In this document: positions 33,001 to 59,935 of the stretch, piece after piece
Position numbering within the stretch: the first letter of the stretch is position 1
Layout of the letters: the number at the start of each line of letters is the position of its first letter
From: Candidatus Omnitrophota bacterium
GTDB lineage: Bacteria; Omnitrophota; Gorgyraeia; Zapsychrales; JANLHA01
DNA: 64,000 nt
NCBI GenBank assembly: GCA_022711395.1
Contig: JAKLFA010000005.1
Location: forward strand, 44,410-108,409
Reading direction: 5' to 3'
Notes under the pieces: model-generated
Seen by the model: only the letters and a program-made list of their open reading frames with translations
Databases searched by the model: none
Told to the model about the DNA's origin: nothing
Made by a program: the position numbers and the translations under genes

Positions 33001-36000
33001 GATGGTCTATGTCCTTCTGACCTTGTGGGGCGTTGAGGCTGAGGGCGCCGGGACATCACAGCATGCGGCAGCCATTCTTCCGCTGGACCAAACGGGTGAT
33101 GTGTTCATCGTCGATTTTTCGTTGGGCCAGACACGGCGCCTGCGCCTTGACGATCATTATCGAAGAAAAGGCGAATATCTTCTCTTAAAACCGGATTCTA
33201 AAACCGACCCGCAGCGGCTGTGTGAACTTTGGCGGCGATTTGAAGGCCGGTCGCTTTTCTTGGGAACGCTCGCCGGAAGAGAATTTCTGTCCCTGTTCTA
33301 CCTTTCCATCCATTCGGCGAAAGGCCTGGGGCTGACAGCCTCGATCCTCAATAACATCGGGCTGGTTTATGACAGGACCGGCCAGCCAGACAAAGCGATC
33401 AGGTTCTATCAGCAAGCCGTTCAAAGAGACCCGGCGGCAGCGGAAGCCTATCACAATCTTGCGACACTTTATACTCAGGCGGGCCAAAGGCGCAAGGCCA
33501 TGGCGCTTTACCGTAAGGCGATCAAGTTCAATCCGCACCTTGCTGAGGCCTGGAACAATCTCGGCATTTCTTATTCGGAAACAAAAGAGCATGACCGGGA
33601 GATCGCGGCCTTAAAACGGGCCATACAGGTGCGTCCTTATTATGCCGAAGCCTATAACAATCTCGGCGTGGCTTATGCTGACGCCGGAAAGGTTCAGGAG
33701 GCGGTCCTTTGTTACGAAACAGCGATCGCGCTTCAGCCCAACAGTTTCAGAGCCTATCGGAATTTAGGTGATATCTATTATTCCATGCGCAAGATCACCG
33801 CTGCGGTCCGGAATTTCAGCAAAGCGGTCCGCATAAGCCCGATCTTGATCAAGATGGTCCCCAGGGAACTTCAGTCTAAGGTCATCCGTGAGATGAAAAA
33901 ACAGAAGACGACGGACGGGACTAATGCAGCGGTTTTGAACGATGACCTCGTTTATCCGGCCGGCAATATGGACGATCGGAATTTTTCGTCAGAGGATCTC
34001 CCTGAAACAAGACCCGGTCTCGTCACGATGAACACGCAAGCCGGGTCAGCCCTTTTGCAGGTCCTGAAATACAGCACAACGTTTACGGTAGTCTACGAGG
34101 AGGAAATGCTCCCCGGAGATCTTAAGCGGGTGAACGGCGGCTGCCAGGCTGATATTTATTATTCGGCAGAACGCGACCGGTTCTACAAGATCCGGCGTTC
34201 GCTTGTCTGCTCATATTACACGGCACTGCGAAACCGGCTGTTGTATCGCGGGCTTTTTAAGACGGCGGCGTATGCCTGGGTGATCGACACAGCGCGTAAG
34301 ATTTATCAATACTCCGCCGGGCAGAAAGCTGCTGACGGACAATCTTTCAGGGATATCCTTTCGCAGGCCCGAAAGAACGGCAATCCGCGCGCCGGTATTT
34401 TGAAATATGTCACAACGGCTTTAAAAGGTTTTAGATCTGTCTGCTGTTTCTGCATTGTCCTCGCGGGCAGCGGGTTTATCTTCTTCAGGTCCGTCCGGGC
34501 CGAGAAAGCGCTGTTTTATGACAATTATTTTAAAGGGTATGAAAGCATGCTCAAACACGGGTTCGTGCAGCGCGGGTATGTGGCCGATTACCGGTTGATT
34601 CAGGCCCCCGCGTCGGATCAGAGCGGGACCTTTAGATGGAGATGGCTTAACCGCGACCGAAAAGCCGTGGAACAGGTGGAGGTCGTTGAGCTGGCGGAGG
34701 TCTTAAGGGACCTTACGGATGAACAGTTTTTCGCGGCGGTCGAAAGGTATATTGCGATCCAGCACGCGCTCTGGCGTGAAGGCTTCTTCAACCACGCGCT
34801 GGGATTTTTGGGTAATTACGGTTATCTCAAGAAAGACAGCCGGATGAGCGGGCCGCTGGTCTTATTTGATCCGGGCGAGGTCAGTGAAGAGTATGGTGGC
34901 GATCTTGAGAAGGCGCTTACGGTCATCGCGCAAAAACAGGAACGGGCGTATAAAGAGTTGAACGCGATCAACCCTGCCTGGGCGGGATATTATCAGAAAA
35001 GGCTTGCGGCGGAATTTAACCGGAAAAAATTCCTTGAGCTTTGGCGAAGCGGCCCTGTCCTTCAGATTGAGCCGGTCCAAAGTTATTCGACCAACGCCGC
35101 GGTGCTGAACGTCACGGACCGGGGAGAGGCGAAGGAAGGAGGCGATCCCCGCCTGGAGTCGATCCTCCGCGTGGCCCGGGCGATCAATCCAGCTTTTGAT
35201 GAAAGCGCTTTGCGTGAGCACTATGCTTCACGAAAAAGTGAACTCGAAGAAAGGCCGTGCTACGGGGCCTCTTGTGTTCCTTGGGGAACGGAAACGATCG
35301 ATGGAGCGGTTTACGCTGAATTTGTGCTGGATTATGTTTCTTATAAGATCGATACTCCGGATGAAGCCGCTGATTTTCCGCCTGACATAAAAAATCGTAT
35401 TGATCATGATGACATGCTGGATTCTCTGAAAAATGATTTTCGCGTTTTAGGCGCGTTCAAAATACACGAGACAGACTCTTATCCTGAAATTGACGCGATC
35501 GATCATTATGGCCGTGTCTATCGCCGTGTTGCGCTGTATGTTCCGGTCGAATACAGGGATTTTATTTCTCTTTATCTGGCAGTTGGTGAGAAGACCATGC
35601 GAATGATCATGTTCGGCATGCCCAAAATATCGAGCAAGGAAGACCTGGCGGGATTTTTAAAGCAAAAAGGAATTACGGGGGCCGTTGTCGATGACGGCTT
35701 TTTTGCGGTCTTTGAAGCTGTTCGCCGGATCCATCCACGCGTCGATGTTCGGCTGTTGTGGGAGGCTTATCAAGAGATCGCGGCTGATTTTTCGAAAGGG
35801 GCGAAGAGCTCTCCGGGCGCGGTCGTGGTCCTGGACATCGAGTCGGATGAACACAGCCGTTATGGCGGGGATGAATATGACAAAAAAGAAACGAAGGGCT
35901 TTTTCCTGGATTTTCTAAGGGATGAGATGAAGATCCCGGGTGTTTATCTGAGGGAAGTGGCTTATACGAGTCCCGTGAGGGAAGGGAGCTCCGGTGACTA

Positions 36001-39000
36001 CGCCCTTAATCCGGATCATTATTTTACCCAACATCGCAGGCAGTCCTATGTCGCTTCCCGTGAATTTGATCCGTTGCTGCGCGCCTGTGTTCTTGCAAGG
36101 GAAAAAGGATTGCCGATAAGAAAGATCTTTTTGGGAGAAACGGATGACTATCAGCAGATGGTGGACGAAGGGGTCAGGCTTTTAGGAAAGGAACGCGGAA
36201 CAGGCGTGCTTGGGAAGAAAGAATCCGGTTTTCTGTTGTTGGATCGGCTGGCGCTTCCTTATCCGCCGGGCATCGCGCTCTCCGAATCCCTGGTCAAAAG
36301 AATTTGTGAAATGTCCGGTTCAAGCCGGCAAGCCCTTATGGACTGCCTTTATAAAAAATTGGCGGGCATCGGTATTGATACTGAAAAAGACATGCTCGCG
36401 GTCCGCAGCAACCCGAAACGATCCATGCCGGGAATTTTCACGACTTGCCGGACGCTGGACATGAAATATTTGTTAGCGGATATCTTGACGGTCGCTAACG
36501 CCTGGTATTCGGAGCGCGCCGCGGAGTACCGCAAGAAAAATGGCCTGTCAGAGGCGTTTGATCTGCCGATCATTGTTCAGCTTTGGAAGAGCGGAGAATC
36601 TCCGGACCGTGATTATTTAAAAAAGAGAGGAGCGGACCCGAAGCCGCCGCTGTATGCGTCGGGCGTCCTTTCCACGCGCAACCCCAATAATAATGAGAAG
36701 AAGCTTTATGGCCGCTACAAAGTCGACAGCCACGGCGAAGATCTGATGACCGGAGGAAAAGAGGGTGAGGACGTTAATGGCCTTGAGACGGAAGCTCCGG
36801 ATCTTTACCGCCAGTTATTATCAGCCGCAGAGACTTTGGAGGCTGAGGCTGGGCCGCAAGAGATCGAATTTGTTGTGAATGATGGAACGCTTTATTTCGT
36901 CCAGACCCGTAAACTCAATTTTTCTGCCGCCGCGGAGATCGCTTATATCCGTGAGTTGCTGACCACCGGAAAGATCACAGAGGCCCGCGCCATCCCGCTG
37001 ATCGAGGCTCTGCATGAAAAAATCCAAAAGCGGAAAGTTTATAAGATCAGGGAAGGTTTGCAGTTGCGGCCCATTGCCGGGGCGTTGGCCTCCACACCCG
37101 GGGCCATCCGGGGATATCTGGCGTTTGATGAGGATGGCGCGAAACAATTGATGGAGGAAGGGAAAGCGGTCATTTTCGCGGCCTGTTTCAGGCATCAGGG
37201 AGAGAGCTTTTTAATGACCATGCTGGATTATCCTTTGGCCGGTTTGATCACCTCCTACGGCAATGGTTCATCTCATGAAGCTGTTTTGTGCCGCCTTGCT
37301 GGGATCCCCTCGCTTATCCGGCTAAGCGGATGCGAAATTATGACCGGTTTGCATCCTGGTATCAAGGGCGCGGATGGTTTGATGCTTCATGCGGGCGATA
37401 TGGTCATTATTGACGGGGATAATGGGATCCTTTATGAAGCGCCTGAGGAAGATGTTCTGCAGGAGAACGGGGTCGTGTTTGATGCCAGTTACGGGATCGA
37501 TATCCCGGCGATGCGGAAGGCATTTCTGACGGATTACGTCCATGAAGATGGGACTTTAAAAAGCGGGATCAGCCGCCAGCGCCTTGTGGAACTGAACCAG
37601 TCGGCGGTGGACAAGTTCAAGGAGCTCGATGCCAAAGGCGACAGGAAGGGAGCGTTTACCGCGAACCTTGAAAAGCATTTTCTGCACGGGTTGTTGGACC
37701 TGGTGCCCGAAAGCAACGCCGCGGTGCTTGGCCGTGTCAGTGAGGATTTTCAAGAAGAGATCGAGCAGGCATGGGCGAACGGCGCCTGGGAAACGGTTGA
37801 GCAGATGCAGGGCATTTTGCCGAGGGATAACGGATTTAAGCTCGTGTGGCGGGCCTTCACGGCTCCGTTGGCGCACGCTCCGCCGGAAGGGGCGGTGGTT
37901 TCAAGGGTCCACAATTTCTCTCAACTCGAGATCTATTTTTCCTCACCTGATGTTGCCCAAAAGTTCGCCTTTGATTTCCGGCCTGAATTGCTGCTTGCCC
38001 TTCAGACGGTTTCGTATCATGAATGGCTGAAGGAGTGGGAGGTCATGGATGACGATGACAATTTCGAAGAGCGTCTTAAGGGTCATTCTCTGTATGGTCA
38101 GATGGCCTGGCGGATCGAAGAATGGTTCAGCGGCCAGAACCGCGCTCTTTCTTTCAAGAATATTCCGGATATGCCGTCGGTTCGTGCTGTTCTTGAGGAT
38201 CCTTTGGCGAGGGAGGTTATGTTCGGATTTGAAGATGAGAACATTCCGGTCGGCGACCTTCGGCGCGTGCTTCAGAAGATCTTGAAGGACCGCATTCCGG
38301 TCCATGAGGGCCCTTCAAGGATCTTGAACATTCTTCAGGATGAAGCCGTGGGCCTGGCGCAAGACCTCGCTGATAAATCTTACACGAGCCGTTTTGACAC
38401 GTATCTTCTTTGGCGCATCAGAAAAGTCTGGGCCATTTTAAAGTGCCTGGAGATCGTTTCACAGGCACGGCCGCAGAACGGCCATAAGCCGCGCGCAGAA
38501 GAAATGCTCGGATGCTGGGCGTTCATTCCGGCCCTGGCCTTATCGATCGTTTCGCAGGGCGGGCAGTTAGCTTCTGTTTCCTGCGGAGGGGACGCTTTGC
38601 CTTTTCTGATGAATACCATCGGGCTCGTTCTTTTAATTGCCTGGATCATAAGGGCGTGGGATCGAAGGATCATCTATATTTGGTGGCAGAAAGACACATT
38701 TTTAACAGCGGCCGTGTCTTGTGTTTCCACGTTCGGGCTGCTTCCTCTTCTTTGGGGATCGATCAGTGAGCACCAGGGACAGTATATTTCCTGGCTGTGC
38801 GCGATTGTTGTGTTCTCTTTAGATCTTGTGCTGTGGACCGCGCTCGGCTGGACCGGATACAGGCAGAACAAGCGGGATAAAAAAGAAAAGGCTGATGAGC
38901 ATCCCGGAAAAAGATCCGGGACGGGTCCGCACGTGAATTCAGCGGTCTTGCAGGAGGCGCTTCCTGAACGCTGGATCAACACCCATCCGCAAGATTATCC

Positions 39001-42000
39001 TGAACTGGATGATGAGATCGTGATCTCCGAGCGGTTCCTGCGGGTTCTGGGAATGCGGCCGACCCCGCTGGTGCGTTTGGAACGCATGAGCCGCATGTTC
39101 AGTTCGGACCGACCCAGAATGATATTGTTGAAAGATGAATCCCGGCGTCTGGGGCAGAGCTTTAAGATCCTCGGGGTCTTGATCGAGGTCAACGCGGTCT
39201 TTGTTGACCGGATCCAGCTGGCGATGGAAGGAAAGACCCGTCTCACGCAACCGTATTATATCGTGACCCAGACCGTCGGCAATCACGGGATCGCCATGGT
39301 CACGGCGGTCAGGATCCTTATCGAACATTACCGGAAAAAATATCAGGGACAGGACAGTGTCTTAAGGATGCTGGACCATATCGAGCCGGTCGTGTTCACG
39401 GTTTGTGATCAAGAGCTGCCCGATGCCAAACGCCTGGGGCTGGAGCGGGCTCTTGAAGAATATCGGATTTGTGTTCGAAATGATCATAAGGGAAAACTGT
39501 TTAATCGATACGCGGATTATCCTCAGGCGGAGACCGGACGTTCGCGGTTCATGAAAGAAAACCGCGGCCATGCTTCATACATGGAGCATGGGAATTTAAA
39601 GATCCAGTCCGGGCACGCGCTGGCCGGCATCGAGATCGTCGAGCAGCTCACTGAGATGGGTTTCAAAGGCAGGCGCGCTTCGGTGATCGTGCCTGTTGGC
39701 GCCGGCGGGCCGTTGGGGATCATCGGAGGTTTTAAACTTGCCGCGCGCCGGATGAGGTGGGCGCCTGTTTTTGGCATTGCGGCACAGAGCATTTCTTACG
39801 GCGCGTTGGTGAGGACATTGAAAGATGGAAAGCCCTATATCAATCAGCCCGTTACTGAGCAGCGCGTCGCGCTGGATGGACGAAGTTTTATTTTTGAGGA
39901 CGGGATCGCGGTCACGCGGCCGGATCCGAAGGCTGTTGAGACGGCGCGCCGCATTGTGGATTTTGCCGCCACGGTGGACGCCCGCAAGGCGTTTGAACGT
40001 TCGGCGCCGCTTCTTTACACGGAGCTGAATGATTTTTACAGCGGAGCAGATGTCATGGTTGGAGGGACAACGTCTTTGACCGCGGAACTTCTTTTTGAAC
40101 ATTTTGACGGCCTTGACCATTCGAATCAATTGTTGACGGCTGGCCCGGCTTTGGATGAAGCGGAAGTGATCGTCCTTTTGGGAACGGAGGGTAATGTTGC
40201 CTCTGATCTTTTAACGGAGATCGGACGCCGGTCATCAATGGCGTTTAGCAAAGGAATTTCTACAAATGCCGTCGGGGTTCGGATCCCGGGCATGAATTCT
40301 TCTGTTCTGCGGGAAGGACGAGATCTCGTTTCAGCATTGAAAAAAGCGGCTGTTATGGGAAGTTTCCTTCTGGCGGATGCGGCGGTTATGGCTAATGGGG
40401 TCGATCAGGATATTCATGAATTGGGTAAAACGATTGTAAAGTCCGCAGGGTCGGTGGCCCTGTATGCCGCTTTAGCGGTTTTAGGCGTCATTCTTTTTCG
40501 CGCGATCACGGGATGGGTCAAGACGCTTCCTGAAGAGGACCGTTGGGCGGATGTTCAGAGGCAGTTGGAAGAGGATAAAAAATCCGCGGCCGCTTCTGAA
40601 CCTGGAACCTTGAAACAAGCTCCGGAAGAGCCGTCGGTAAGTTTTATCCGCGGGCCGCAGGACCTGCCTCCTTCAAGCACGCCGGTCAGAGACAGCCGGG
40701 ATGTTTTACGGCTGCGTCCTGTTTCCGGCGGAGGGGAGCATCAGATCGTATCCGCCGCCAGGTATCTTGACCGCTGGATGTGGCAGCATCGGAATCGTTT
40801 TCCGCGTGTAAGGAGTTTGAAAAAGATCCGGATCCCGGTCGTGACCGGTGTGGCGGCGTCTATCTTGAAGGAAGGCAGCTGGACGCCCGATGAGATCAGG
40901 CGGATGTTCCGTGTGGCTGAAGATGAAGCGGCAGAGAACGATGACGGATTCCTTGAGGTGCCCATTGATGTCCTGACCCTGAACTGGTCGTCCGGGCGGA
41001 AAAGGCTGGACACAGACGCGCTGGTGGAAGCGGCATTATCCGTTGCCGCCGGAGGGCGTTTAAGAAGCTGGATCCTGCCGGGGATGCTGATATTGCGGAT
41101 GTTCCGGGGAGTCGGAGACCTCAAGAAGACCATGGGGTCCTATATTGATGATATCCAGATGGAGGAAGACGGCAAGGCGGCGATCCCGCAAAAAAACAGG
41201 CCCGTGTGGGAAGAGCAGTCCGTCGCGCTGGAAGAGGGCGGGCGCACGCCGCTGGGGAAGGGTTGCTTTTTTGTTGTTCACACCACAACGGTCTTCGGTT
41301 CAAGCGAGCCGATCTGGCTTTACAGCGTTGTGCGTGACGATGTGCCGATCATCAATGGACTTCGGCTAAAGGCCCCGAATTTTATTGATGTCGATGGGAC
41401 GTTGCTTGCCACGATCGTTTCGATCAATAAAGATTCGGTGCTTCTAAAAGTCCTGGCTCCGGGCAGTTCCAATGTATCGTTGAATGATGACGGAACGAAT
41501 GCCGCGGTGGTGGAAAATTGCCCTCACTGCGACCGGAATTCGCTGGCGTTAAGCCGGCCGCTGTTTGAAACGGGATTTTTCCGCATTGTCTGCGATGCCC
41601 ATCCGCTAAGGGAAGGCCACGTCCTTATCATTCCCAAAGAGCATTATTCCTGCGTCGGGGAATATCCTGAAAACGTTTTTGCTGAGTTTAAGGATGTTTT
41701 TGCCCGGGTGATCGGGTTTTTGAAAAGTGAATTCGGAAATGAGCGGATCGCGGTCTTTGAGCACGGCATCGTGGGGCAAACCGTGTTCCATTCCCATGTT
41801 CATCTGATGCCATTTTCAGGCAAAGCGCAGGATATTGTCCCTGAAAAAAATGTTCTATCCGCGGCCCGTTCATTGAAAGACATGGCGCGGCGATTTAGAG
41901 ATGAAAAGGCGTATCTGTTTTTCATGATCGGAAGGCAGATGTGGTTTGTGGACACGCGTATAGGCGCGCCGAGATTTTTCAGAGACCGGTTCGCAAAAGC

Positions 42001-45000
42001 CCTGGGTGTTGAGGAACGGGCGGACTGGAAAAAAACAGAACAGTCGGCTGATCTTATGCAGGCATTCAGAGCGGAGTGCGAAAGCCTTCAAAAGAAATTT
42101 CAAACAAGCGCATGGAATCCGGGGATCTTCGGATCTGCGGATACGAATGCCGCAGTGACAGGGAATCGTTATGAAAAGAGCCTGGCGAAAGAAAGGCCTT
42201 CAGGCCGCCTGTGGATGCGGGCTGTTTCGTTGGCTGCGATGCTGTCGTCAACCGCCGCTTTCGCGGCCAGGCCTTTGAGCGACACCAACCAGCTTGCTCA
42301 GGTGTCTTCTGACGCGTGCGCATTTCCGGCGCGGACATTCCTTGAAGAGGTCGAGTTTAAGATCTGCGGGTATATCCCGTTCTCAGCGGATGGAAAGATC
42401 GCGGATATTTCTTTTTCAGGCTGGGGCGAATTTTTGATCACGGCCGTTTTGCTCATCCTGACAGCCGTTGCGCTGAAGGTTATTTACACTCCTAACATAT
42501 TGAAGAAATTCGCGCTGCCGGAAGGCGTTCAGCGCGGTGTTTTGTCCGTGATTTGGGCTGGTCTGGGAGGATTGTTGGGGCTCATCGTTCTCGGCGGGTC
42601 CGACCACGGGATTTTAAGCGCGGTCCTTGGCGCCGGCCTTGGATGGTTCGTTCACAAGGTTTGGAACTTACGTGAAACAATTTATCAGCGCGCGGCAAAA
42701 AGCACGGTCATTGTTTATCTTGCTCTTGTCCCGTGGGTTCTTCCGGCGGTTCTGACCGGAACATTCGTAAACGGCCGGGCAGTATTTTTCCGGCCTGAAA
42801 ATTCTCCGGCGGCTGAAGGAATTCTACAAAAGCTTGAGAAGCCGTTCCCCGAAATCTATCAGATTGCGCGAAAGAGCGAAGTTTCGATCATATTGGCCCC
42901 GGGTTCCGTCGGGCCGTTGGCGGAAGTGTATAAACCCGTTATTGGGGCTGTCACGGTGAGGCTGGATGAGCGGGCCGTTGATCTGTTCCCCGAACAGGCG
43001 GCTGCGAATCTCGCCCACGAACTAACGCATGTTGCGCAGCGCAAAGGAAATTTTCCAGGAATTTTCGGGAATGTGATCTGGGCTTTTGAGGGAAGGGACC
43101 TTTTGGCGAATGAGAGCGAGGCCTATGAGGTTGAAAAAAAGGTGTATGACAGGATCGCTGGAGGCGCTACGTATCAAACGGTAAGCATGGTGGATCTGAA
43201 GGCGTTCTATTCTGAGACCAGTCGGGATTATGTGGTTTCGTTCTTTAAACGGATCGGTTCTTCCGTCGGGCTTGTTCTGGTGTTTTTATTCTGGCCCCGG
43301 ATCATCCTTCGGTTTAGAAGTCTCGCGAGAGGAGAAGTGTTGCGCGGCAGGGTGTCTGTGCTGGCGGATGGTGAAATCATCAGAGACAACGGATCATGGG
43401 CAAAGGAAGGTGATGGCGGGCGCAATTCCGCCTGCCTTTCCGCTGAGCTTGACACGGTCACGCGTGAGATCCTGGATATTGATTTTCCCGGGATCATCGC
43501 GCGTTCCAGAGAAAATTGGCTGCGGCTGCATCGAGAATTTTTCGGCCATTTCGCGCCTGACGGAAAGGCCTCTGACGAGGAACGAATGGCCTGGGAAGAG
43601 GCTTTGAAGACGATCAATCGAACAGCATCTTTGAAGGCCGGAACGCCGCCGATGAGGCATATTGATTTTGTTCAGCAGGCGAAAGATCTGAATAAGAGCT
43701 TTGAAATTGAGCTGCGGCAGACAGATTTCTCATATCAGCCGCGCAAAAGTCTGTTGCTGATGGCCGCGATGGTCGGGCGTATTTTGGCCGGACGGCAAGC
43801 GGAGGAGGCGCCGGCGGCCGTTGTGGGAGCGGAGATTCAACGCGTTCTGACTGAAGCGAATCGCGCTAAGAATTATCTGGGTTTTGTTTTTCCGCAGGCA
43901 GCCGGGGTCTTTTGCATTGATTATTTGACTGCCGGACTCGCTCCGGCCGGTCTGTCATCGGGGGCAGAGGACGCCTCATCCCAGGCCGGCGCTGCGAAGT
44001 GGAAGAGCGTTACGCTTATTCCAGCCTCCAGCGAAGCTCCTTTAGCGTTTCTGCGTGTTGTTTTTGACAGGCCGGTCCAGATCATCGTCGCGGGAGAGGG
44101 CTGCCCGGTCTGCGATTTCGCGCTGCTTCGTGATTTCAGAACGTTTGGGCGTTTATCTGCGCTGCGGATCACTCAAATGAAAAAAGAGGATTTTGAAGCA
44201 GAGGAGGCTTTGCGGGCGTTCACTTTTGATGAGAATACGCCGTTTGCGGACCAGCAGCGCCGGCGTTTTGCCTTTCTTAAGAGAATGGCCGACCATTTCG
44301 CCTGGCCGGTTCTGTATCGTCCATATTGGTTTACAGCGAAAAGGTTCGCTGAATCGGTGGGGCGCACGCCTCAGGAAAGATTTTTTATTGAGAAGTTCTT
44401 TGCGCTCGGGTTTATGTCCGGCGGCGGCAATGAACGCTGGCCTTATGACCGGGAGATGATCGAGTCGGGTGAAACAAAGGACTTGGTGAGAAAGTCCCTG
44501 GAGATCGAAAAAGAGGCGCAGAAGCTTCAAGTCAGGATCGGTTTTTATCAGCGCTTTGGGCTCCCTGAAGCGGCCCAGGCCCCGGGCGCTTCGACCCGTC
44601 AGCAGATCTTTGAGCAGGGCAAGCAGGTGAAAGCGAACGCGCTTCAACTGGCCGCGGACCCGCTGTTCGCGCCTTTGATGCGGATCTTTGTTACTCCCGA
44701 CGGAAACAAGGGATGGCTGGTCCATGAACGGGAGGTCAATGAGATGGTCAAGCGTATCGATCAGCAGATCGCCGCCGTTCTTTTGGCCGCGCGTCCGGCG
44801 ATCGAGGCCGCCCAGGCGCGTTTTTCGAAAGATCATCAACAGATGTTCTTATGCGCGTTGACGCAAGCATTGTTGAATATCATTCTTGGCAAGAGCAAAT
44901 ATTCCAACCGGGAGGAAATAAAGGCTTCCTTAGCGGCCGGTTATGGCCTGTCGGGAGTTGAAATTCCGTCCGTGAAGAGCGTTTTGGATGTGGCTTTTCA

Positions 45001-48000
45001 AGAAAAATTTGAACAGGGCCTCGAGGCATTTTCCAAAGAACTGCGGGATGTTCTTGAACCGAACCATGATGAAGCCATCGGCGAGGAAATCGCGAAGAAA
45101 GAATCTTTCCTGTGGGATTCGCTGGCCGGGCCGTGGGCTCAAACTTTAAGCCTTGAACTTGATCCGGTTTTGGCGGAAGTCCAGGGATTGCGGCAGCAGC
45201 TTTCCGATCCATCTCAGATAGAAGCCTCTTTGGAAACAGCGCTCCAATTGCGCTCAAGGATAAAGGAAGGCGATGTCGATGGGGCCATGACCGCGGCGCA
45301 ACGGTTGAGAGCGCAGGCGAAGGATGAAAATAAAACCAGGATCGGGAACATTCTGCGCGAGTTCGCCGTTTGGGCTGTCGGCCGGATTGAAGAGAGGCTT
45401 AAGGCTCATGATGATCAGCGGGTTGAGGAGATAACGAGACGGAGCCGCGCGGCGCTGCAGGGGTTTCCGGTTTTAGATGAATTCAATCAGCTTTTGAAAT
45501 CAGCCCGTCGACAACTGATCGAATCAGACGGCAATGCTGTTCAACCCGTCGCGCAGGATGAAAATGCGCGCGCGGCGCAGCAACTGCTGCAGGAATTCAA
45601 AGACCATTTTCATGCCGGCCGCGACCGCCTGATCCGGGAATTCCTGGAGCTTGCCGCGCAGGGCCGTGGCCTTGAATTTGAGGACCGGGAAAAGCTTCAC
45701 CGGTATTTTCTTCATCATGGCGGCGGACTGAATTATCGGGCCAAAGAATTGCTTGAGTCGGTCGAGAGACGCAAAAAGAAGGGGACCAACGCGAGCGTGT
45801 GCGGCGAGGATGCTTCCCGTCAAGAGGAAGTTCTTAAACATGACATGGAATATGCCAAGAGCTGCGGGGTTCCGCTGGATTTTCTTCAGAGCGCCAGGGA
45901 TTTTATTTTTACGAATTATGTGAGGATCGCGTGGGAGATCTTGAAGCATCTTAAGGCCGGATATCAGGGACAGGATCAGCTGTCTTCCGATTATCGCGAG
46001 GCATTTGTGCAGCTTTTCCGGCATCACGGGATCCGTTCGATCCTGGATATCGGTTTTGAATTCGGGGAATTCCTGCATATGTTCTATCCGGTCTGCCGGG
46101 ACGCCGGTGTCAGGCTGTTCGGCCTTGAAATGGAAGAGCGCCGAAGACTGGTTGTCCGGGCGGAAGAGGCTGAATTTGTTTTTGGTGACGCGGAACAATT
46201 GAACGAACATCTGCCTGGGCGGACGTTCGATCTCATTGTTGCCTCCGGCGTCTGCGGGTTCATACAGTTCCATGCCAAGACTGTTGCGCCAGCATGGATG
46301 CCTAAAAATCATCGCAGTTTACGCGAGGCCTATGAGAGCAGCATGACGATCGTTCAGCAGGGAGTCGGGGCGCTCAGCGAGCATCCTCGGGCCGCCATGT
46401 TCGTGGCGTCATTCAGCTCATTTCATCTGCTGGACGCTTCTGAACTGGAGCGAAAGGGAGTGCGGGTCTTAGTATGGAACACGGAAGAAATGCGGGTCCG
46501 CAAAGAAACGAATTCGGGCCAGGCGATCGAAAGCTCTCAGCAATATGCTTATGACAGGTATCAGGCCCGACGGATATTCAGCATTTGGAATCATGGTTCC
46601 AATGTCGCGGTGTTCGCAAAAAATAATAACGGGAGCTCTGACCCCAAGACCAACGCGAGCGTTTTGGACCCGCCAGTGATGGCTCATTTAAATGGATGGA
46701 CGCCTATCGAACGATTGAACTTTGACAGTTATTTGACGTGGGTCTTTAAGGCCGCGAAGAGAATTCCCTGGAGCCGGGGCCGGTCAACACGAGGGGTGCT
46801 TACGGTCTATTGGCTGGGTGGGGTCAACGGTAAAACAGACGTCCCTCTTGCGACATATCAGGGGCGCAGGGCCCATTTTGAGCGCCAGCTGAAAAATCTG
46901 AAAAAAGCAGCTTCGATAGCTGAACTTCGAAAGGTCACAGGATTATTGCTTGAGCACGGCTTTGTGCCCGAGCCGGAATTCGGATGGTATGCCATTCAGG
47001 TTCCCGTAGGGATCACGCTTGAAAAATGGGCGCAAAGAAATCAGGGGGATATTATGCCGGCGCGTGTTTGGCCGCTGGTCCGCGCGGTCTTTAAAGCGAT
47101 GATGGTGATGGAGCGGCATGGTTTGATCACACAGGACTTTTCGGATAGGAACGTGATTATCAACGGGACGGAAAAGCGCCCGATCGTTCACCTGCCCGAT
47201 CTTGGCAGCGTGGTTTCCCATGACGAAAAGGATTTAACGGATGAATTGATCGGAGTGACCCAGGCCTGGGCCCCGCCGGAGGTCAAGTCCTACAGCCCGG
47301 TTGCTGATCCGAGGGTCCATGTGTATCAGATGGGCAAGTTTCTCTACTATTTAGCGCTTGGCGTGTCTCGTCACGCTGAGTTGGCTTTGAAGGACACAAG
47401 TCCGCAACAGATCCATTTTATGCTCGGAAAAAAGTCCTGGGCGCCGCTTATTCCTGTTCTGCTTAAGGCCCTGGCTGTGTCGCCGGAGGATCGTTACGCG
47501 AGCGTGGCGGAGCTTTATGGGGATGTCAGAGGCCTGTTTAGCGGAGCGCCGGAATATTGGCGGCCTGTCCGCTCTCAGGAAATCGAGATCCCCATCAGGA
47601 TCATTTATGATCAGAGACAACGTGGCAACGCTTCTCAAGGAATGAATTCCGCGGTCCTCGAAGGACGGGCAGGGGAAGAAAAAGGTTCGGCTGTCCGCCG
47701 GTCGCCGGGTGAAGTTCTTCATTTGGAGGTCCCTTCCGGGAAGTGCCCTCCAGTGTTAAGGGATTATATTTCCGTTCACAACCGGATCTTGGAATTGAAG
47801 GAGGCCATTGCGCTGGGATTTTTGGAAAAGACGATCGCTCAAATCGAAAGTGGCGATGATCAGGGCCTTTTGGCCAAGTGGCGGGCGATGGAGGCCGGCC
47901 TGCGCAAGGTCTTGACGGGCCGGGGGTATGGCCTGAAGATCTTATCGGAAGATCACCCGATCACTCAGGGCCGCGCCGGTTATGTCATTGGGCGCACCAT

Positions 48001-51000
48001 CTGTTTTTCTAAAGCGGAAAGAGTGGCGGATATTTTGATGTATCTGGGGCATGAGAGCGTGCACCTTGTCAACTGGGAGGAATCCGAGGCGCGCAAGATG
48101 GATGTGCGTTTGATCATCTGGATGAAATCTCTCGTCGATGCGTTGCGCCAGAGTCCGGAGGATGCGTTTAAGCAGGCCGCGGACGCGCTGGAAAAGATCG
48201 CCCTTGATTTTGAGCTCGATATCCACACCGCGCGGCTGCAGCTTGAAGAACAGGGGACGGAATTTTTGAAGGAGCATGGGCTAGGGATGATCACGCAAAC
48301 GTCCGGGTATTTAACGGCAGTGGCTCAGTCCGCGAGCGGGGTGATCGAATCCTTGCCTGATCTGACGGCGGGATTCTCCATGCGCTTGAAGGACGTTGCG
48401 CCTTGCGCAGCGGCTGCATTTGTGCTGGAGTCTTTGTATGAGTGGAATATTTCAATTCTAAGAGAGAGCCCTTCTCCGGCGGAAGCGACCGCTGTCAGTG
48501 AGGCGACCCGGTCTTTGGCCGAGGTCTTCAGTCCTGATAAGAGATCATTATCTGTCGCTTACGCCAGAATGAACCAAGGTTACGCGAAAGGTGAGACTTC
48601 CTCGGATCAGGTCCTGGCTGAGTTGGGAGCTTTATTGGAAAAGATGGATTGTGTTCTGGAAGGGGTCCGTGTGAAGGACGAATTGACGGCCCTTCTCAAG
48701 GAAGTCCCCGGCCTGACAGAAGAGGACCTCGATATTTTGCGGAGCATGAGCGAGTACACCCTTCAACTGCAAGCGGTGCGGGCTGATACGGATAATCCGA
48801 CGAGACTTTCGTGGATCAAACAGATATTCGCCGACCATTCTTCTTTGAGCCGGCTGATGATCTTGTATTTTCGGACCAAATTTGATCCTGAATTTCAGGG
48901 GGGCCGGGAGGCTCGGGAAAAACAGCTTCAGGAGATCCGAAAGAATTTTGTGGAGGAAATGTCGGTCTCATTCCGGGGGAATAATTTTATTCACGAACGG
49001 GAAGTGATCGCGATTGCCTGGGAACTTTTGGACGCGACGGTAAAAACGGATTTTTTTGTGGCGGACCGCATATCCTTAGGGCTCAGGCTTGACCCCAAGA
49101 AGATGAGTATTTTTGAACGGAATAAAAAAGATTTTCCGGATGTTCCCTACGCGGTGATCTGGGTGCATGTGCCCTATGGCGGGTACGGTGTTCATGTGAG
49201 GTTTGAGAATGTTGCCCGGGGCGGCTTGCGCGAAATGGTGGCTGCCCGGACCCAGTTGCGGAATAAACTGCTGAATGAATGTTACAGCCTGGCTTACACA
49301 CAGAATTTTAAGAATTTGATCCCCGAGGGCGGGTCCAAGGGGGTCTTTATCCCGGCGGAGAATGTGAACCCGGTGGCTGTGGGGATCGGATATGTGGATT
49401 CATTGATCCATATGATGCAGGATCGTCCGGAAATCATCTGCGGGGGATCCATCGCTGTTGTTGATCCTTTGGAATTGGGGCCGGATGAAGGGACAGGGCC
49501 TCTTTCCACTTTGGCGACGGTCCGTGGCTGGCAAAAGGGCTTGAAGGAATGGCGGCTTTTGATGACCGGAAAGCTCGCCGTCCTGGGCGGATGCCCGCAC
49601 ATGGACAATAATGTCAGCGGTCCAGCTGTTGTTATTTCTCCGGATGGCGGGTTTTTGTCCCAGGTTGGCACTAACCGCGTGACTTCTCAGGGGGTGATGA
49701 AGAATCTAGACGAATCCTTGAAGTGGGTTGGTATAGATCCCCGGAAGCAGGGCTTGCGTCTTGGGCTTACCGGTGGGACCAATGGTGATGTGGGGAGCGG
49801 AGACCTGATCATAGCGATCGAGCGTTACGGAGAAAAAGCCAAGATCATTTATATCAATGATCATACGGCTGTGATCTATGATGAGGCCGGCATTGACCAG
49901 CAGGAGCTTTTACGATTGGTTCATGGGGGGAAAGTTCTCAGCGAGTTTGACCCTCAAAAGCTAAGATCCTCGCAGGCATTTTTTGTATTGACGCCCAAAG
50001 AATCCCAGATGGTGACGCTCACAGCCGAGCAGATCAAAAATATGAACCGGCAGGCTTTCGCCACGCTTGCCCAACGTTATGGGCGCGAAAATGTGCAATT
50101 GGTTGATTTTGACATCGCGGTCAGTTCAGAGTCAGAGCGGATATCGATCGTTCCGGCGATCCTTCGGGACAACATGATCTTTTTGGGCCGGGTCGACGCC
50201 CTGGTTCCGGGAGGGGGACTTAAGGACACGATCCGGCATGAAGATATGGATGGCCGGGTCAAGAACGTGGACATGCTTCTGGATGAGAAAGGACAGACGG
50301 TCACAAAAATCGTGTGTTATGGCGCCAATGTTTTTGCCACCAGGCCCGCCAATGACCGGATGGAAGAGATGGGGATCCTGGTCGTCCCGGACGAAAAGGC
50401 CAACAGCGTTGGGGTTTCGGTGTCGTCCCGCCGGGAAGTCGATGGGAACCTTCTGTTCAAACTGGACGAGCTTAAGAAGGCCGACGCGGAGTTCATGCCG
50501 GATCTTCTGGCAAAACTTTTGGATGAGTCCGTTCAGAAGCATTGGCTTTTGATGCGGGAGCGGTCCGCCCGCCCGGGAGAGCGCGTGGTCACGCAGATCT
50601 CACCGGACGTTTCACGGGAGATCATCCGCATCAAGAATCTTCTCATCGCGGCGGATGTCCTTAAAAACCATCCGGATCTGGCTCGGGCCTATTTGAGGAA
50701 GTATTACCCGCGGGCCGTTGAGCTGGAGCGGGTTTATGCGAGGATCCCGCCGGAGCGGCTGAAGAGCACGCTGGCCATAACGGTCGCGATGGATGTGGTT
50801 TTAAATGCCGGCATCAATTATGTGCGCCAGACAGCGTTGACGACAGGACGCACGGATGTTGAGATCGTTCTGGCGTATGCCGTTAAATCTGTGGAGAGCG
50901 GCCACACTGAGAAGAAGAAAAAGGTTTATGCCTTAAATCATGAACTTCCGCTGAGCGAACAGATCGGGCAGCTCAGCCGGATCGAGGGAGATCAGCAAGA

Positions 51001-54000
51001 GCGGGTCTTGAATGCGCTCATGAAGCCGGAAGCCTCTTCTTCGCCCAAAAATTGGGCGGTCGAAGAAGACTTTGTTGATCTTATTCGGAGGATCGTAAAT
51101 TTCACGCCGGTCCAGGAAATGGAAGCCCCTTCAAATCAGGATGAACAGGAGTACTGCTTTGAAGTCCGAAGAACGATCTTAACAACACCGTGGCGTTGCC
51201 CAATTTATGCGGCCGCTCTGGCTTTGATCGCGCAGATCATTGTGGGTCGGCTGAAAAAAGAATTTGGCAATGGCCGGCGGTGGCAGGCCCGTGTTGTGCA
51301 TGGCGTCGCAGAAGGGTATGCCGGACCGCTTTCGGATATTGATGTTTATGTGGACATTTCACAAGAGGATGTTCCTGTGGCTGAGATCAAGCGAAGGGCG
51401 GTTGAGCTCGATCAGGAAATTCTCAATCAATTACAAAAAGCCGGTCTTTTTTCGGGGTCACGAAATTTTATTGATATAAAAGTCAATCGGCCATTGACCG
51501 AGAGAGAAAAACTTTATCACACAGACTTGAAAACTATGGTTTCAACGATCCTGAGTGATTGGTGTGGTCATTGCGCCGATCCGGCTTTGAATCGACTGCT
51601 TTGCCGTTACAAGGATAAGTTCCTGCAGGATGAAAAAGAGAGCGGCGACCCGCAACACATAAATTCAGCGGTGTTACGGAAGCACGAGGGGAGGCAGCCG
51701 CAAAAAGTGGCTCTGTTGAGTGTAAATGATTTCGGGAAAAAAGATCGGTCGTCCGTTGAAGCCATGGCCAGGATTTTAGAGGAAGGCGGAAAGATTGTTG
51801 TCGGGGAACGCAACATGGCCCGTTGGCCGCGCGCCGTGCGCGCTGTTTTGGGAGACGCGAGTGTTTTTGATTTCGATTTCAATCCGGCGGGGGTATCGGA
51901 TGATACGCACGCAAGAGAATTGTTCCACTCGCTGGTCCGTGAAGGGTATCTTGTTTTTGTTGAAGGAGGCTATGTCTGGGCCAAAACACCCGACGAGGAA
52001 GAGTTGTCTTCTTTGGGATTTCAAACGCGGGAGATCGATGAGGTCTTCCGAGTCTGGCGGACGACCGAACCCGGACGGGCGGTGACGGCTGTTTTGGATA
52101 AGCTTGAAACGGAATCCTCCATCTATGCCGTATTGTGCGGCGGAAAACTGGACAGCTGCCTGTTTGTGGTGTTTTTAAAGATATTGCACTATGCCTCTCG
52201 GCGCACAAAAGACCTTCGCGTGATCATTAATGAGGAGGCGGTGAGCTTTTATCCGGGAAAAAGCGTTGAACAAACTTTAAAGGAGCGTTACTTTCCCGCC
52301 GTCAGGCGTTTGGGAATAGAGCCGTCTATCGAATATTTTGATGAAGAATCCACGCAAGGGCCATCAGGACAAAGGCCTGCCGTGAGCTTCAGGATCTATC
52401 CTTCAACATCAGCGTTTCGGATGGATGTTCTTTCTGGCGGGGATCGGTCTTCCGTTCCGCAACGCGCGACACGGCTTGGCTGCTGGGCCTTTGTTCCGTC
52501 GCTTATTTTCGCTACATCAGCTCAGGCCGCGCCTCATCCTGCGCTGACAGGAGGGGGGGACGGATTGCCGTTCTTGATCAATCTGGCCGGGTTTGTCTTT
52601 TTTGTCGCCTGGGTCATGTCGGCCTGGAATAAAAGGTTTTTGTACGTTTGGTGGCATAAGGATTTCTTTTTAACAGTCGGATGGGGGCTGACGACGGTGT
52701 TTGGCCTGTTCCCGCTTTTTTGGGGCACGATTCCCGATGAGCAAGGCAGGTATGTTTCCTGGGCGTGCGCGACGGCGTCTCTTTTCTTGAATCTTGTGTT
52801 AAGGGTGGCCACAGGCTGGATGGAGTATAGGGAAGGGAGGAGGCATGAAGAGGAACGACAAATAAAGACGGGAGAGCAGAAAAAAGTTTTCAAAGATCCT
52901 GATACTTCGAAAGACTCGAAGGAAGGTAAAACCAACGCCGCGGTGCTGAGAACGGATGAGGCAACGGGCAGCAGTCAACCCTTGGAGCAGCCGGCGCCTT
53001 TATATATGGGAAGCGACCAGAAGACCCGGAGTTCTCTCTTCAGGGTCGGGGCGCCCGTGTGCGCAAACTGCGAGATCTTTTTTGTGCGCGCTCTCCGCAA
53101 CCGGGCGCTTCAAAGAGAAATCGTCTGCGATGGAGAGACGCGCCGCAATGGGAGCCGGTATTCGAGGAAAGTGTTTTTGCATCGCCAGGAGGGAGACCTT
53201 TCTGCCGGAAGAGAGATTGAGTTTGCTGTTTTACCGTCCATAAACAGGCTTGGATATTATGGAAAGCCCCTCGGCCTTCTTTTGACGCCGATTATGATCA
53301 ATGGACGGTCTTTGCATGGGATGATCGCACTTAAGGAAAGGCTGTTTGGGAGATGGGTCCTGCGCCGGCATTCGGCGCTTTTACGCCTGCTGGAGCTCAA
53401 TGGTTTCGGGCCTCAGATATGGGACAGGATATTCGCTGATGAGGCTTTGACTTACGAGGAAATTGAAAAACTCCAGGGACTTAAAAATTTTCTGCTCGGT
53501 TCTCCGCTGCGGATCCAGGTCCGGCAAGGTATCGATATTAAAAATCCTGAGGAATTTGCGGAGTTGTGCTACAAGGGGACCGATCATCCGTTTTCGTATA
53601 TTGATGTTATTCCTGCGCAGGAAGATTTAAAGAGAAACCCTTCTTTGGCGGGAGAGGAGGGGCCTGATCGTCGCAACTCGTCCATTTTACCGGAGAGAGG
53701 GGCAGAGGCTGTGGCTGACACAGACGCAGTGCAGGAGGCTGATGAGGAGTCGGGCTGGTCTGTCGTCCGGGAACTTTTAACCAGCCGCTTATATCTGAAG
53801 AAGACGATCCTGGAGAATGTCCCTGTTCCGCCGCCTGCCGTGCAGATCAATGCCAGCGATCTTTGTAACAATCATTGCCTTCAGTGCATCGGCGCGGTGC
53901 TGGACCGGGAGAAAGGTTGTCCTGCAGAACTGGAAGCGGCTGCGAAGGTCATGCAGTCCGATGAGATCGACATGCTCATCAACGATCTTGAAGCGTATAA

Positions 54001-56820: not shown

Positions 56821-56887
56821 ACAAGACACCAGGACACTAAGGCACTAGACACTAAGGGTTTCAGTGTCGTAGTGTCTTAGTGTCATA
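56821..56887. repeat. intergenic GACAC/CACTAG inverted-repeat element (GGACACTAAGGCACTAGACACTAAGG ... GTGTCTTAGTGTC)
   Basis: 'gacactaag' at about 56834-56842 and about 56849-56857 pairs with 'cttagtgtc' at about 56874-56882; a 'gacact/agtgtc' hairpin surrounds 'aagggtttc'. Related units recur at 57535-57580 and 57655-57678. Confidence 0.45.
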
Positions 56888-57526: not shown

Positions 57527-57534
57527 AACTTCTG

Positions 57535-57680
57535 ACACTGCGGCACTAGGACACTCAGACACCAAGACACTAGAATCTAAACCCGCAGTGATAAAAATCC
57601 ACAATTTTTTGTTTTGAATTCTGCCGCCAGCGGCAGAATTGGGCTGGTTTGGCCTTTTAGTGCCTAGTGCCTGTCTCGTT
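57535..57680. repeat. second GACAC/CACTAG repeat cluster plus 11-bp perfect palindrome (AATTCTGCCGC CA GCGGCAGAATT, 57617-57640) in the convergent eda / radical-SAM intergenic region
   Basis: 'gacactgcggcactaggacactcagacaccaagacactag' contains direct GACAC units. 'cactgcgg' (57537-45) and 'ccgcagtg' (57584-92) are inverted. The inverse copy 'agtgcctagtgcc' lies at 57657-57669. The palindrome could be a bidirectional terminator hairpin or a protein-binding site; the T-run precedes rather than follows it on the plus strand. Confidence 0.4.
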
Positions 57681-59797: not shown

Positions 59798-59873
59798 ATG
59801 GTTTTCTTTGTTTTCTACGGGGCCGCCCGTGGGCGTTCATTATATCGAGTTTAGAATGAAATGGCAAATTAAA

Positions 59874-59902
59874 GAGCAGGGGCGTTATGCCCTGTCCTTG
59901 AG
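59874..59902 (-). terminator. weak hairpin (CAGGGGC gttat GCCCTG) downstream of the outer-membrane protein gene
   Basis: Imperfect 6-bp GC stem. On the minus strand it is followed by 'ctctttaattt'. Weak candidate. Confidence 0.2.
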
Positions 59903-59935
59903 AGGCCTGGAAGAAGAACTTTCGGAAGAAAGATA

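What the first reader, a model, noticed from the sequence alone, without database searches (positions are those of the whole stretch)
42990..43140. Embedded HExxH zincin-like (DUF4157-like) module as candidate cis-processing protease
'AANLAHELTHVAQRKG ... NESEAYEVE' matches the HExxHxxQ-type zincin signature found in DUF4157 peptidase-like domains. If the hexapeptide motifs are cleavage sites, this module is the obvious in-gene candidate protease. It sits in a long, about-1,200-aa module (42161-45784) that itself starts with a Sec-like signal.
Basis: inference. Interest (0 to 1): 0.5.

Follow-up and report, generated by a model that had tools for sequence, protein, structure and literature searches.

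The report
Membrane zincin-like cassette in Omnitrophota giant gene
The HExxH motif is real and marks a small, probably zinc-binding, membrane-anchored domain inside an 18,571-residue Omnitrophota giant protein, but it looks like one swappable cargo module, not the enzyme that would cut the giant protein into pieces.

Summary
AANLAHELTHVAQRKG (nt 43001-43048, HELTH at 43016-43030) and NESEAYEVE (nt 43109-43135) lie in frame in a giant ORF (29-55744, 18,571 aa) of a Candidatus Omnitrophota MAG. About 47 N-[AS]-[AS]-V-L junction motifs divide this ORF into modules.

The "zincin-like" reading is weakly supported:
- An exhaustive search found one homologue, a standalone 425-aa membrane protein that conserves LAHELxHVxQ and three downstream Glu.
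- Both proteins give only sub-threshold, helix-only hits to PF13699 (formerly DUF4157).

The "cis-processing protease" reading is not supported:
- The 1,200-aa module is really two modules, split by a degenerate junction RNSACL at nt 43421-43438. The HExxH protein (M40a) is 426 aa.
- The positive-inside rule puts its HExxH domain outside the cytoplasm, while its own junctions are cytoplasmic.
- Two closely related lineages keep the junction motif. One has a different module directly upstream of the M40b orthologue, and the other has no M40a in the 10,146 aa I could see.

M40a is most likely an accessory cassette. No peptidase family was detected anywhere else in the ORF.

The parts
29..55744 (+). 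Giant ORF of 18,571 aa. The reading frame is still open at the window's 5' edge. It is a multi-enzyme Omnitrophota giant protein that about 47 junction motifs divide into modules.
42143..42160 (+). Upstream junction motif TNAAVT, a non-canonical variant of N[AS][AS]VL. It separates the HIT module (M39) from M40a.
42161..43438 (+). Module M40a (aa 14045-14470, 426 aa), the HExxH membrane protein. It is the same size and architecture as the standalone homologue P0002 (425 aa).
42215..42265 (+). Signal-peptide-like hydrophobic region MRAVSLAAMLSSTAAFA. A positively charged stretch precedes it and an AXA-type site (AFA|AR) follows.
   Evidence: sequence inspection; no dedicated predictor was run
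42425..42769 (+). Block of four predicted transmembrane helices: 42425-42487, 42539-42598, 42611-42664 and 42704-42769.
42770..43258 (+). Soluble domain of about 163 aa (aa 14248-14410), zincin-like and predicted to be extracytoplasmic.
43016..43030 (+). HELTH (H14330, E14331, H14334), the putative zinc-binding and catalytic motif. The context AAAxLAHELxHVxQ is conserved in P0002.
43088..43135 (+). Stretch holding the candidate third metal ligands: E14354 (nt 43088-43090, 20 residues after the second His), E14362 (43112-43114) and E14369 (43133-43135). All three are invariant in P0002. The string ESEAYEVE as such is not conserved.
   Evidence: the model is unconfident here
43259..43315 (+). 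Fifth transmembrane helix, SSVGLVLVFLFWPRIILRF. An Arg-rich cytoplasmic tail follows it.
43421..43438 (+). Degenerate junction motif RNSACL. DNA homology with a related lineage (L008) begins at nt 43418, and that lineage carries CNSACL here with an unrelated module upstream.
43439..45784 (+). Module M40b (about 790 aa, no Pfam family match, function unknown). It is conserved at 79% identity in lineage 3 independently of M40a.
45785..45802 (+). Downstream junction motif TNASVC, conserved as TNASVC in lineage 3.

Best explanation
M40a (nt 42161-43438) is one accessory cassette among about 48 modules of an Omnitrophota multi-enzyme giant protein.

It encodes a complete 426-aa polytopic membrane protein:
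- an N-terminal Sec-type signal;
- four transmembrane helices;
- a soluble domain of about 160 aa with a minimal zincin-like fold;
- a fifth transmembrane helix and a short Arg-rich tail.

The soluble domain probably binds zinc through H14330, H14334 and a downstream Glu (E14354 or E14362), with E14331 as the general base. It is predicted to face the periplasm or cell surface. There it would act on extracytoplasmic substrates such as exported proteins, envelope proteins or prey-surface proteins.

It is not the enzyme that recognises the N[AS][AS]VL junctions. That factor, if the giant protein is cleaved at all, is cytoplasmic and is encoded elsewhere.

Shown: the motif, its conservation, the module boundaries, the cassette-like presence and absence, and the sub-threshold Pfam match.
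Inferred: the zincin fold, zinc binding, the topology, catalytic activity, and cleavage of the polyprotein.
For: Rarity of the family
- An exhaustive phmmer search of 1.84 billion cluster representatives found two real hits: a fragment of the window's own protein (P0001) and P0002 (425 aa, 39% identity, E 4e-26).
- P0002 is a standalone gene among ordinary genes (SIS_2, Pribosyltran, sigma-70).
- P0002 aligns over the transmembrane helices, the domain and the fifth helix. GSVGPLAE, RLDxR, PExAAAxLAHELxHVxQ and ExRDLLxxE are invariant.

Zincin-like character
- For both soluble domains scanned on their own, PF13699 was the only Pfam match. It was sub-threshold and limited to the HExxH helix.
- The AF2 model shows three strands followed by the HExxH helix.
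- Top Foldseek hits: 3e11 zincin-like protein, selecase, Spartan, jannalysin.

Topology
- In both homologues K and R cluster in alternate short loops and in the tail after the fifth helix. This puts the HExxH domain outside the cytoplasm.

Cassette behaviour
- Lineage 3 (L008) has orthologues of M40b, M41, M42 and M44-M47 at 64-87% identity. The 100 aa upstream of its CNSACL junction are unrelated to M40a.
- DNA homology starts at window nt 43418.
- Lineage 2 keeps 24 junction motifs in 10,146 visible residues and has no match to the M40a profile.

Modules behave as whole proteins
- The HIT module aligns end to end with standalone HIT proteins of about 210 aa.
Against: - Both structure models are low confidence (mean pLDDT 48 and 50; below 40 after the HExxH helix). 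The fold matches could therefore be driven by the motif itself.
- No Pfam, NCBIfam or PDB sequence match reaches significance.
- The topology rests on a hand-applied positive-inside rule, not on a dedicated predictor or an experiment.
- About 47% of the lineage-2 giant protein and most of the lineage-3 protein could not be fetched, so M40a could sit elsewhere in them.
- No other protease was detected in the ORF, so M40a remains the only recognisable candidate.
- The four junctions around M39-M40b are all non-canonical (permutation P = 0.044). This could hint at special processing there.
Confidence: 0.55

Rival explanations
1. One reading: M40a is the in-gene maturation protease. It would cleave the giant polyprotein, in cis or in trans, at the N[AS][AS]VL junctions.
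For: - It is the only peptidase-like element detectable in 18,571 aa.
- Gluzincins such as thermolysin prefer a hydrophobic P1' residue (established knowledge of that family). This would fit cleavage before the V or L of the motif.
- The junctions next to it are atypical (NAAVV, NAAVT, NSACL, NASVC), as can happen at cis-cleaved sites in viral polyproteins.
- The polyprotein premise is plausible. Modules equal whole proteins. Sec and TAT signals follow junctions directly.
Against: - The predicted extracytoplasmic location is opposite to its own flanking junctions and to the linkers of cytosolic-type enzyme modules such as GNAT, HIT, PPDK-like, GDH and radical SAM.
- It is replaced by an unrelated module in lineage 3 and not found in the visible 53% of the lineage-2 orthologue. 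Both lineages maintain the motif.
- The only homologue in 1.84 billion representatives is a standalone gene with no giant gene nearby.
- The invariant Asn (46 of 46 canonical sites) is not what a zincin S1' pocket would explain.
Confidence: 0.07
2. The HExxH domain binds metal but is not a peptidase. It could be an adaptor or processing-accessory domain like DUF4157 in eCIS cargo proteins, or an HExxH-type non-proteolytic enzyme.
For: - The nearest sequence signature is DUF4157. Its proteolytic activity has never been shown, and it is dispensable for cargo loading (PMC8213781; bioRxiv 10.64898/2026.05.27.728243).
Against: - The catalytic Glu of HExxH is conserved in both family members, as are several downstream acidic residues.
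- There is no eCIS context in the window.
Confidence: 0.2
3. The HExxH is a coincidental motif in a membrane protein whose soluble loop has a non-zincin fold and binds no metal.
For: - At least one HExxH occurs by chance in 45% of shuffles of this ORF.
- The two other HExxH sites in the ORF show no similarity to this one or to any peptidase family.
- All database matches are sub-threshold and the models are low confidence.
Against: - H, E and H and eight flanking residues are invariant at 39% overall identity.
- The only Pfam hit for both domains falls on the same HExxH helix.
- The top structural neighbours by two methods are overwhelmingly zincins.
Confidence: 0.15

Closest known systems
Pfam PF13699 eCIS_core (formerly DUF4157, 'PVC-metallopeptidase')
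   Same: It shares the active-site helix signature A-H-E-L-x-H-V-x-Q. PF13699 is the only Pfam family matched by either M40a or P0002. In eCIS cargo proteins the domain is likewise followed by long C-terminal regions (PMC8213781).
   Different: - Scores are below the gathering threshold, and only 17-19 of 79 profile positions match.
- There are no contractile-injection genes nearby.
- M40a is embedded between transmembrane helices, whereas DUF4157 sits after a disordered N-terminal loading sequence.
- DUF4157 itself has no demonstrated protease activity.
Minimal zincins (minigluzincins: projannalysin, proabylysin, selecase; 3e11 Acel_2062)
   Different: - They are soluble proteins of about 110 aa with no transmembrane helices.
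- Sequence identity is 9-24%.
- The query model is low confidence and its C-terminal subdomain is unresolved.
IrrE/PprI and CapP (COG2856/M78-like zincins)
   Different: They are cytoplasmic proteins fused to HTH or GAF-like domains. No sequence-level match was found.
Membrane-embedded zincins HtpX (M48) and BlaR1 (M56)
   Different: There is no Pfam M48 or M56 match even at E <= 10. Their active sites face the cytoplasm, whereas M40a's is predicted to face outward.
Omnitrophota giant proteins ('Archaeovorin' type; 'multi-enzyme metabolic clusters')
   Same: The host ORF fits this class:
- it comes from an Omnitrophota MAG and exceeds 10,000 aa;
- it carries glycosyl- and sugar-transferase, methyltransferase, kinase, NUDIX, HIT and radical SAM content;
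- it has many transmembrane segments.

References: bioRxiv 10.1101/2023.11.21.568195 and 10.64898/2026.06.07.730766.
   Different: Those papers propose C39 or S8 peptidase domains as possible processing enzymes and state that cleavage points are unknown. No C39 or S8 domain is present in this window. Term searches of those two texts did not find the junction motif seen here.
Viral polyprotein proteases (for example 3C-like or NS3)
   Same: The concept is the same: an embedded protease releasing modules at a short recurring site.
   Different: Viral proteases are core, universally conserved parts of the polyprotein and share a compartment with their sites. M40a fails both criteria as far as they could be tested.

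Membership tests
Pfam PF13699 eCIS_core / DUF4157 | Score at or above the curated gathering threshold (22 bits) | tested here: not met
   - 17.1 bits for the 217-aa window fragment and 14.9 bits for the whole module.
- 16.7 bits for the P0002 domain and 14.9 bits for whole P0002.
Pfam PF13699 eCIS_core / DUF4157 | Match across the whole domain of about 79 positions | tested here: not met
   Only profile positions 59/61-77 match, which is the HExxH helix.
Pfam PF13699 eCIS_core / DUF4157 | HExxH(xxQ) motif | tested here: met
   HELTHVAQ in the window and HELMHVSQ in P0002.
Pfam PF13699 eCIS_core / DUF4157 | Genomic association with contractile-injection (phage-tail-like) genes or toxin cargo | tested here: not met
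   Pfam scans of the ORF found no tail, sheath or baseplate families. The families recorded for the flanking genes include none either.
Zincin (clan MA-type) metallopeptidase fold | HExxH located in an alpha-helix that follows a small beta-sheet | tested here: inconclusive
   The AF2 model has strands 39-43, 52-54 and 62-66 followed by helix 74-92, which contains HExxH. pLDDT there is only 55-72, and the overall mean is 50.
Zincin (clan MA-type) metallopeptidase fold | Third zinc ligand (Glu, His or Asp) on a downstream element | tested here: inconclusive
   E14354 (+20), E14362 (+28) and E14369 are invariant in P0002. This region has pLDDT below 40 and no predicted structure.
Zincin (clan MA-type) metallopeptidase fold | Significant structural similarity to solved zincins | tested here: inconclusive
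Zincin (clan MA-type) metallopeptidase fold | Zinc-dependent peptide hydrolysis | not testable with these tools
   This needs biochemistry.
Polyprotein-embedded processing protease (functional class) | Co-occurs with the cleavage motif in related polyproteins, as a core module | tested here: not met
   - Lineage 3 has an unrelated module upstream of the conserved CNSACL-M40b junction.
- Lineage 2 gives no profile hit in 10,146 aa that carry 24 motifs.

Caveat: parts of both genes could not be seen.
Polyprotein-embedded processing protease (functional class) | Active site in the same compartment as the sites | tested here: not met
   Positive-inside analysis of M40a and P0002 puts the domain outside the cytoplasm and the junctions inside. 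This is an inference, not an experiment.
Polyprotein-embedded processing protease (functional class) | Cleaves the junction motif | not testable with these tools
   This needs peptide-cleavage assays or metaproteomic mapping of new termini.
Peptidase M48 (HtpX/Ste24) and M56 (BlaR1) | Pfam family match | tested here: not met
   No M48 or M56 hit at E <= 10.
Omnitrophota giant multi-enzyme proteins (host ORF) | Omnitrophota origin, more than 10,000 aa, many unrelated enzyme Pfam families plus transmembrane segments | tested here: met

The most novel reading that the evidence does not exclude
M40a is a mobile 'protease cassette'. In this reading it is a lineage-specific, membrane-tethered zincin that matures part of the giant polyprotein, for example the four atypical junctions NAAVV, NAAVT, NSACL and NASVC around it, or the exported modules. 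It would be the first identified processing enzyme of a bacterial giant polyprotein.
Probability: 0.07. Interest if true: 0.75.

Novelty: new variant of a known kind. Interest (0 to 1): 0.3.

Why it matters
Whether Omnitrophota giant proteins work as single chains or are cut into many proteins is an open question. West-Roberts et al. (2023) state that cleavage points are unknown.

If M40a were the processing protease, that question would become directly testable. The evidence here argues that it is not. This redirects the search towards a cytoplasmic factor shared by all motif-bearing lineages, possibly an Asn-specific one.

On its own, M40a defines a very rare two-member family of membrane-anchored minimal zincin-like proteins. 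That is of modest interest.

The more valuable by-product is the context. The junction motif is conserved across three lineages, and whole-module gains, losses and replacements break within a few bases of it.

Tried and rejected
Searches that found nothing useful
- Whole-module (1,208 aa) word-indexed homologue search: no hits. This search was later shown to be insensitive, because it missed P0002. It also never returns the giant proteins themselves, so the absence of giant relatives from that tool is not evidence.
- A profile of M40a plus P0002 against 5.8 billion proteins returned only P0002.
- NCBIfam and PDB sequence searches, with a single sequence and with a profile, gave only noise.
- Scans of the GTDB genome collection with the M18/M47 profile found nothing.
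- Two scans of JGI metagenome contigs for M40 found nothing, not even the source contig.
- Literature searches for the motif strings and for bacterial giant polyproteins found nothing relevant.

Ideas tested and dropped
- A shared mini-domain around the three HExxH sites of the ORF (aa 1234, 14330, 16008): there is no significant similarity between them and no Pfam peptidase hit.
- A different HExxH module in the lineage-2 orthologue (CAHEWTHIF...DEFLAD): no family match and unrelated to M40a.
- Any other peptidase family in the ORF at E <= 0.3: none.
- The junction motif as a DNA- or RNA-level signal: rejected, because codons vary synonymously, including both TCN and AGY for Ser.

Structure prediction
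- Two structure predictions gave pLDDT of only 48 and 50, so the fold evidence stays provisional.
Full report
**1. What is at the coordinates**

The window contains one enormous ORF, nt 29-55744, 18,571 aa. Its frame is still open at the window's 5' edge.

In that frame:
- AANLAHELTHVAQRKG is aa 14325-14340 (nt 43001-43048).
- HELTH is aa 14330-14334 (nt 43016-43030).
- NESEAYEVE is aa 14361-14369 (nt 43109-43135).

HExxH by itself means little here. From composition, 0.6 are expected in this ORF and three are observed. In shuffles, 45% contain at least one. The other two sites (aa 1234 HERFH, aa 16008 HESVH) show no similarity to this one and match no peptidase family.

**2. Context**

The ORF is divided by a recurring junction motif x-N-[AS]-[AS]-V-L. 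There are 46 clear copies. The strict form N[AS][AS]VL occurs 35 times against 0.10 expected. Codons vary synonymously, with Ser encoded by both TCN and AGY, so selection acts on the peptide and not on the DNA.

The modules carry unrelated enzyme families:
- bacterial sugar transferase and protein kinase;
- HATPase, several GNATs and methyltransferases;
- Sa_NUDIX and TPR;
- PPDK-like, PLP-dependent enzyme and HIT;
- NAD-GDH and radical SAM/SPASM.

The HIT module aligns end to end with standalone HIT proteins of about 210 aa at about 50% identity. The motif takes the place of their first residues. Weak TAT-signal matches and Sec-like or anchor segments follow several junctions directly.

Flanking genes name the organism as a Candidatus Omnitrophota MAG. 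The ORF therefore belongs to the known class of Omnitrophota giant "multi-enzyme" proteins. For these proteins the literature says cleavage is suspected but cleavage points are unknown, and it proposes C39 or S8 domains as the processing enzymes.

**3. The module itself**

A degenerate junction, GDGGR-NSACL-S, lies at nt 43421-43438.

It is a true boundary. In a related lineage (L008) the orthologue of the downstream part (M40b, 79% identity) is preceded by CNSACL. Upstream of that, 100 aa are unrelated to the window. DNA homology starts at window nt 43418.

The HExxH protein, M40a, is therefore aa 14045-14470, 426 aa. Its layout is:
- a signal-like N-terminus (MRAVSLAAMLSSTAAFA|ARP);
- four transmembrane helices;
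- a soluble domain of about 163 aa containing HELTH;
- a fifth transmembrane helix;
- an Arg-rich tail.

**4. Relatives**

An exhaustive phmmer search of 1.84 billion cluster representatives with the soluble domain found three hits:
- a fragment of the same protein;
- one spurious repeat protein;
- P0002, 425 aa, 39% identity, E 4e-26.

P0002 is a standalone gene in forest-soil contigs. Its neighbours are ordinary genes (SIS_2, phosphoribosyltransferase, sigma-70), and a stop codon lies one codon upstream of its start.

It aligns over the transmembrane helices, the domain and the last helix. Invariant segments are GSVGPLAE, RLDxR, PExAAAxLAHELxHVxQ, PGIxG and ExRDLLxxE. The string ESEAYEVE is not conserved as such, but E14354, E14362 and E14369 are.

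A profile of the two sequences found nothing more in 5.8 billion proteins. The family is real but extremely rare.

**5. Is it a zincin?**

Sequence evidence:
- The only Pfam family matched by either soluble domain is PF13699 eCIS_core, the renamed DUF4157. E-values are 0.0065 and 0.0085.
- Both are below threshold (17.1 and 16.7 bits against 22) and cover only profile positions 59-77 of 79, the HExxH helix.
- NCBIfam and PDB sequence searches gave nothing.

Structure evidence:
- With a two-sequence alignment, AlphaFold2 gave low-confidence models (pLDDT 48 and 50).
- The first 90 residues of the domain (pLDDT 55-72) form two helices, three strands and the HExxH helix. The rest is unresolved.
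- Foldseek against the PDB gave no significant hit. The top five entries included the zincin-like protein 3e11, selecase, Spartan and projannalysin.

My reading is that a minimal zincin-like N-subdomain is likely, at about 0.7. A third ligand is plausible but unverified. Membership of DUF4157 is not established.

DUF4157 itself has no demonstrated protease activity.

**6. Is it the processing protease?**

Three lines of evidence argue against it.

(a) Topology. In both M40a and P0002, K and R cluster in the N-terminal segment before the signal, in the TM1-2 and TM3-4 loops, and in the tail after the last helix. The short TM2-3 loop has none. This places the HExxH domain outside the cytoplasm and both flanking junctions inside. 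The linkers of the many cytosolic-type enzyme modules would also be inaccessible.

(b) Distribution. Three closely related lineages, whose flanking aldolases fall in the same 90%-identity cluster, carry orthologous giant genes with the same motif.
- Lineage 2 (JBBRHV010000006.1, a 19,246-aa product) shows 24 motifs in the 10,146 aa I could fetch.
- It has orthologues of M13-16, 18, 19, 23, 24, 27, 29, 34 and 47.
- Its last 3,291 aa run from an M34-like module through two other modules to an M47-like module. Nothing there resembles M35-M46, and no module matches the M40a profile.
- Lineage 3 has orthologues of M40b-M42 and M44-M47 but a different module in place of M40a.

(c) The sole homologue is not associated with any giant gene.

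Caveats:
- About half of the lineage-2 gene and most of the lineage-3 gene could not be retrieved.
- The topology is an inference.
- No other peptidase family is detectable in the ORF.
- The four junctions around M39-M40b are all non-canonical (P = 0.044).

I put the protease hypothesis at about 0.07.

**7. Most likely mechanism**

M40a is an accessory cassette. If the giant protein is cleaved at its junctions, M40a would be released by an unidentified cytoplasmic factor. I consider cleavage likely but it is unproven.

M40a would then insert into the membrane through its Sec-type signal and transmembrane helices. It would display a small zinc-binding domain on the outer face, acting on extracytoplasmic substrates.

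Rival readings are a non-proteolytic HExxH domain of the DUF4157 kind, and a coincidental motif.

**8. Novelty and score**

The module is a new, unclassified variant of a known kind, the membrane-anchored zincin-like proteins. Its specific proposed role is not supported, so its interest is modest (0.3).

The surrounding biology deserves its own evaluation: a peptide junction motif conserved across lineages, with module gains, losses and replacements whose DNA breakpoints fall within a few bases of the motif.

Noticed in passing
window 29-55744 (46 sites; positions listed): A junction motif x-N-[AS]-[AS]-V-L recurs 46 times. Asn is invariant, position -1 is mostly T or V, and the following residue is small. 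The strict form occurs 35 times against 0.10 expected. Codons vary synonymously, so selection is on the peptide. Term searches of the two Omnitrophota giant-gene papers did not find it.
   Followed up: partly
window 43418, 47645, 51659, 52931, 54859-54880 compared with L008; also L005 and L006: Related Omnitrophota lineages have orthologous giant genes with the same motif but different module sets. DNA homology breakpoints fall within a few bases of motif-coding sequences. Examples are the absence of the GDH module, the replacement of M40a and one extra 582-aa module. Modules therefore behave as in-frame cassettes.
   Followed up: partly
window 2447-2500 (aa 807-824) and 5696-5770 (aa 1890-1914); also 18389-18463: Twin-arginine-type signals (NRRGFLKS..., SRRQMLKG...AYA) and a Sec-type signal (RRFISAVLAVLGVASVLFIEQTALA) lie a few residues after junction motifs. 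Such signals normally work at a free N-terminus, which supports release of the modules as separate proteins. The Pfam TAT_signal hits are weak (E 0.06-0.11).
   Followed up: partly
window 41513-42142 (HIT module, aa 13829-14038): The HIT module is collinear with complete standalone HIT proteins of about 210 aa (about 50% identity; Patescibacteria, Saccharimonadales, Chlamydiales). The upstream motif replaces their first roughly 9 residues.
   Followed up: yes
window 41498-45802 (four consecutive junctions): The junctions around the HIT, M40a and M40b modules are all non-canonical: TNAAVV, TNAAVT, RNSACL and TNASVC. A run of four among 10 variants in 47 sites has permutation P = 0.044. NSACL and TNASVC are conserved in lineage 3.
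   Followed up: partly
window 17732-17770 (aa 5902-5914) compared with L005 aa about 2033-2052: Module M18 is continuous in the window (KLSVAGADLMGKT). Its lineage-2 orthologue has a full motif at that spot (KLSGGVNAAVLVPDRMGKT). So a junction has been lost in one lineage or gained in the other.
   Followed up: no
window 17429-18343 and 54878-55741; 38471-38950 and 52436-52948; 16769-17428 and 23303-23905: There are internal paralogous modules:
- M18 and M47 (45% identity, function unknown, with a conserved VGSVVHVSSSH(E/Q)QDPN segment);
- the C-terminal membrane domains of M36 and M44 (45%);
- the GNAT modules M17 and M23 (33%).

M47 is the only module seen in all three lineages.
   Followed up: partly
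window 18344-21376 (M19, 1,011 aa): This is the most conserved module between lineages (82% aa identity). It has a signal peptide and two transmembrane helices and matches no Pfam family. It is a candidate core component worth a structure prediction.
   Followed up: no
window 3728-3742 (HERFH) and 48050-48064 (HESVH...EESEA); L006 module 1 (CAHEWTHIF...DEFLADLGAE): There are other HExxH sites in this ORF and in the lineage-2 orthologue. None is similar to M40a and none matches a peptidase family.
   Followed up: yes
window 1-28: The giant ORF's frame has no stop codon between the window start and the first ATG at nt 29, so the gene may begin upstream of the window. The lineage-2 orthologue is called at 19,246 aa.
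   Followed up: no
window 55870-64000: Ordinary chromosomal genes lie downstream: an HMGL-like aldolase, a KDPG-type aldolase, a radical SAM protein, MnmA, an outer-membrane Phenol_MetA_deg protein, MutL and MutS. This order is conserved in the related lineages.
   Followed up: yes
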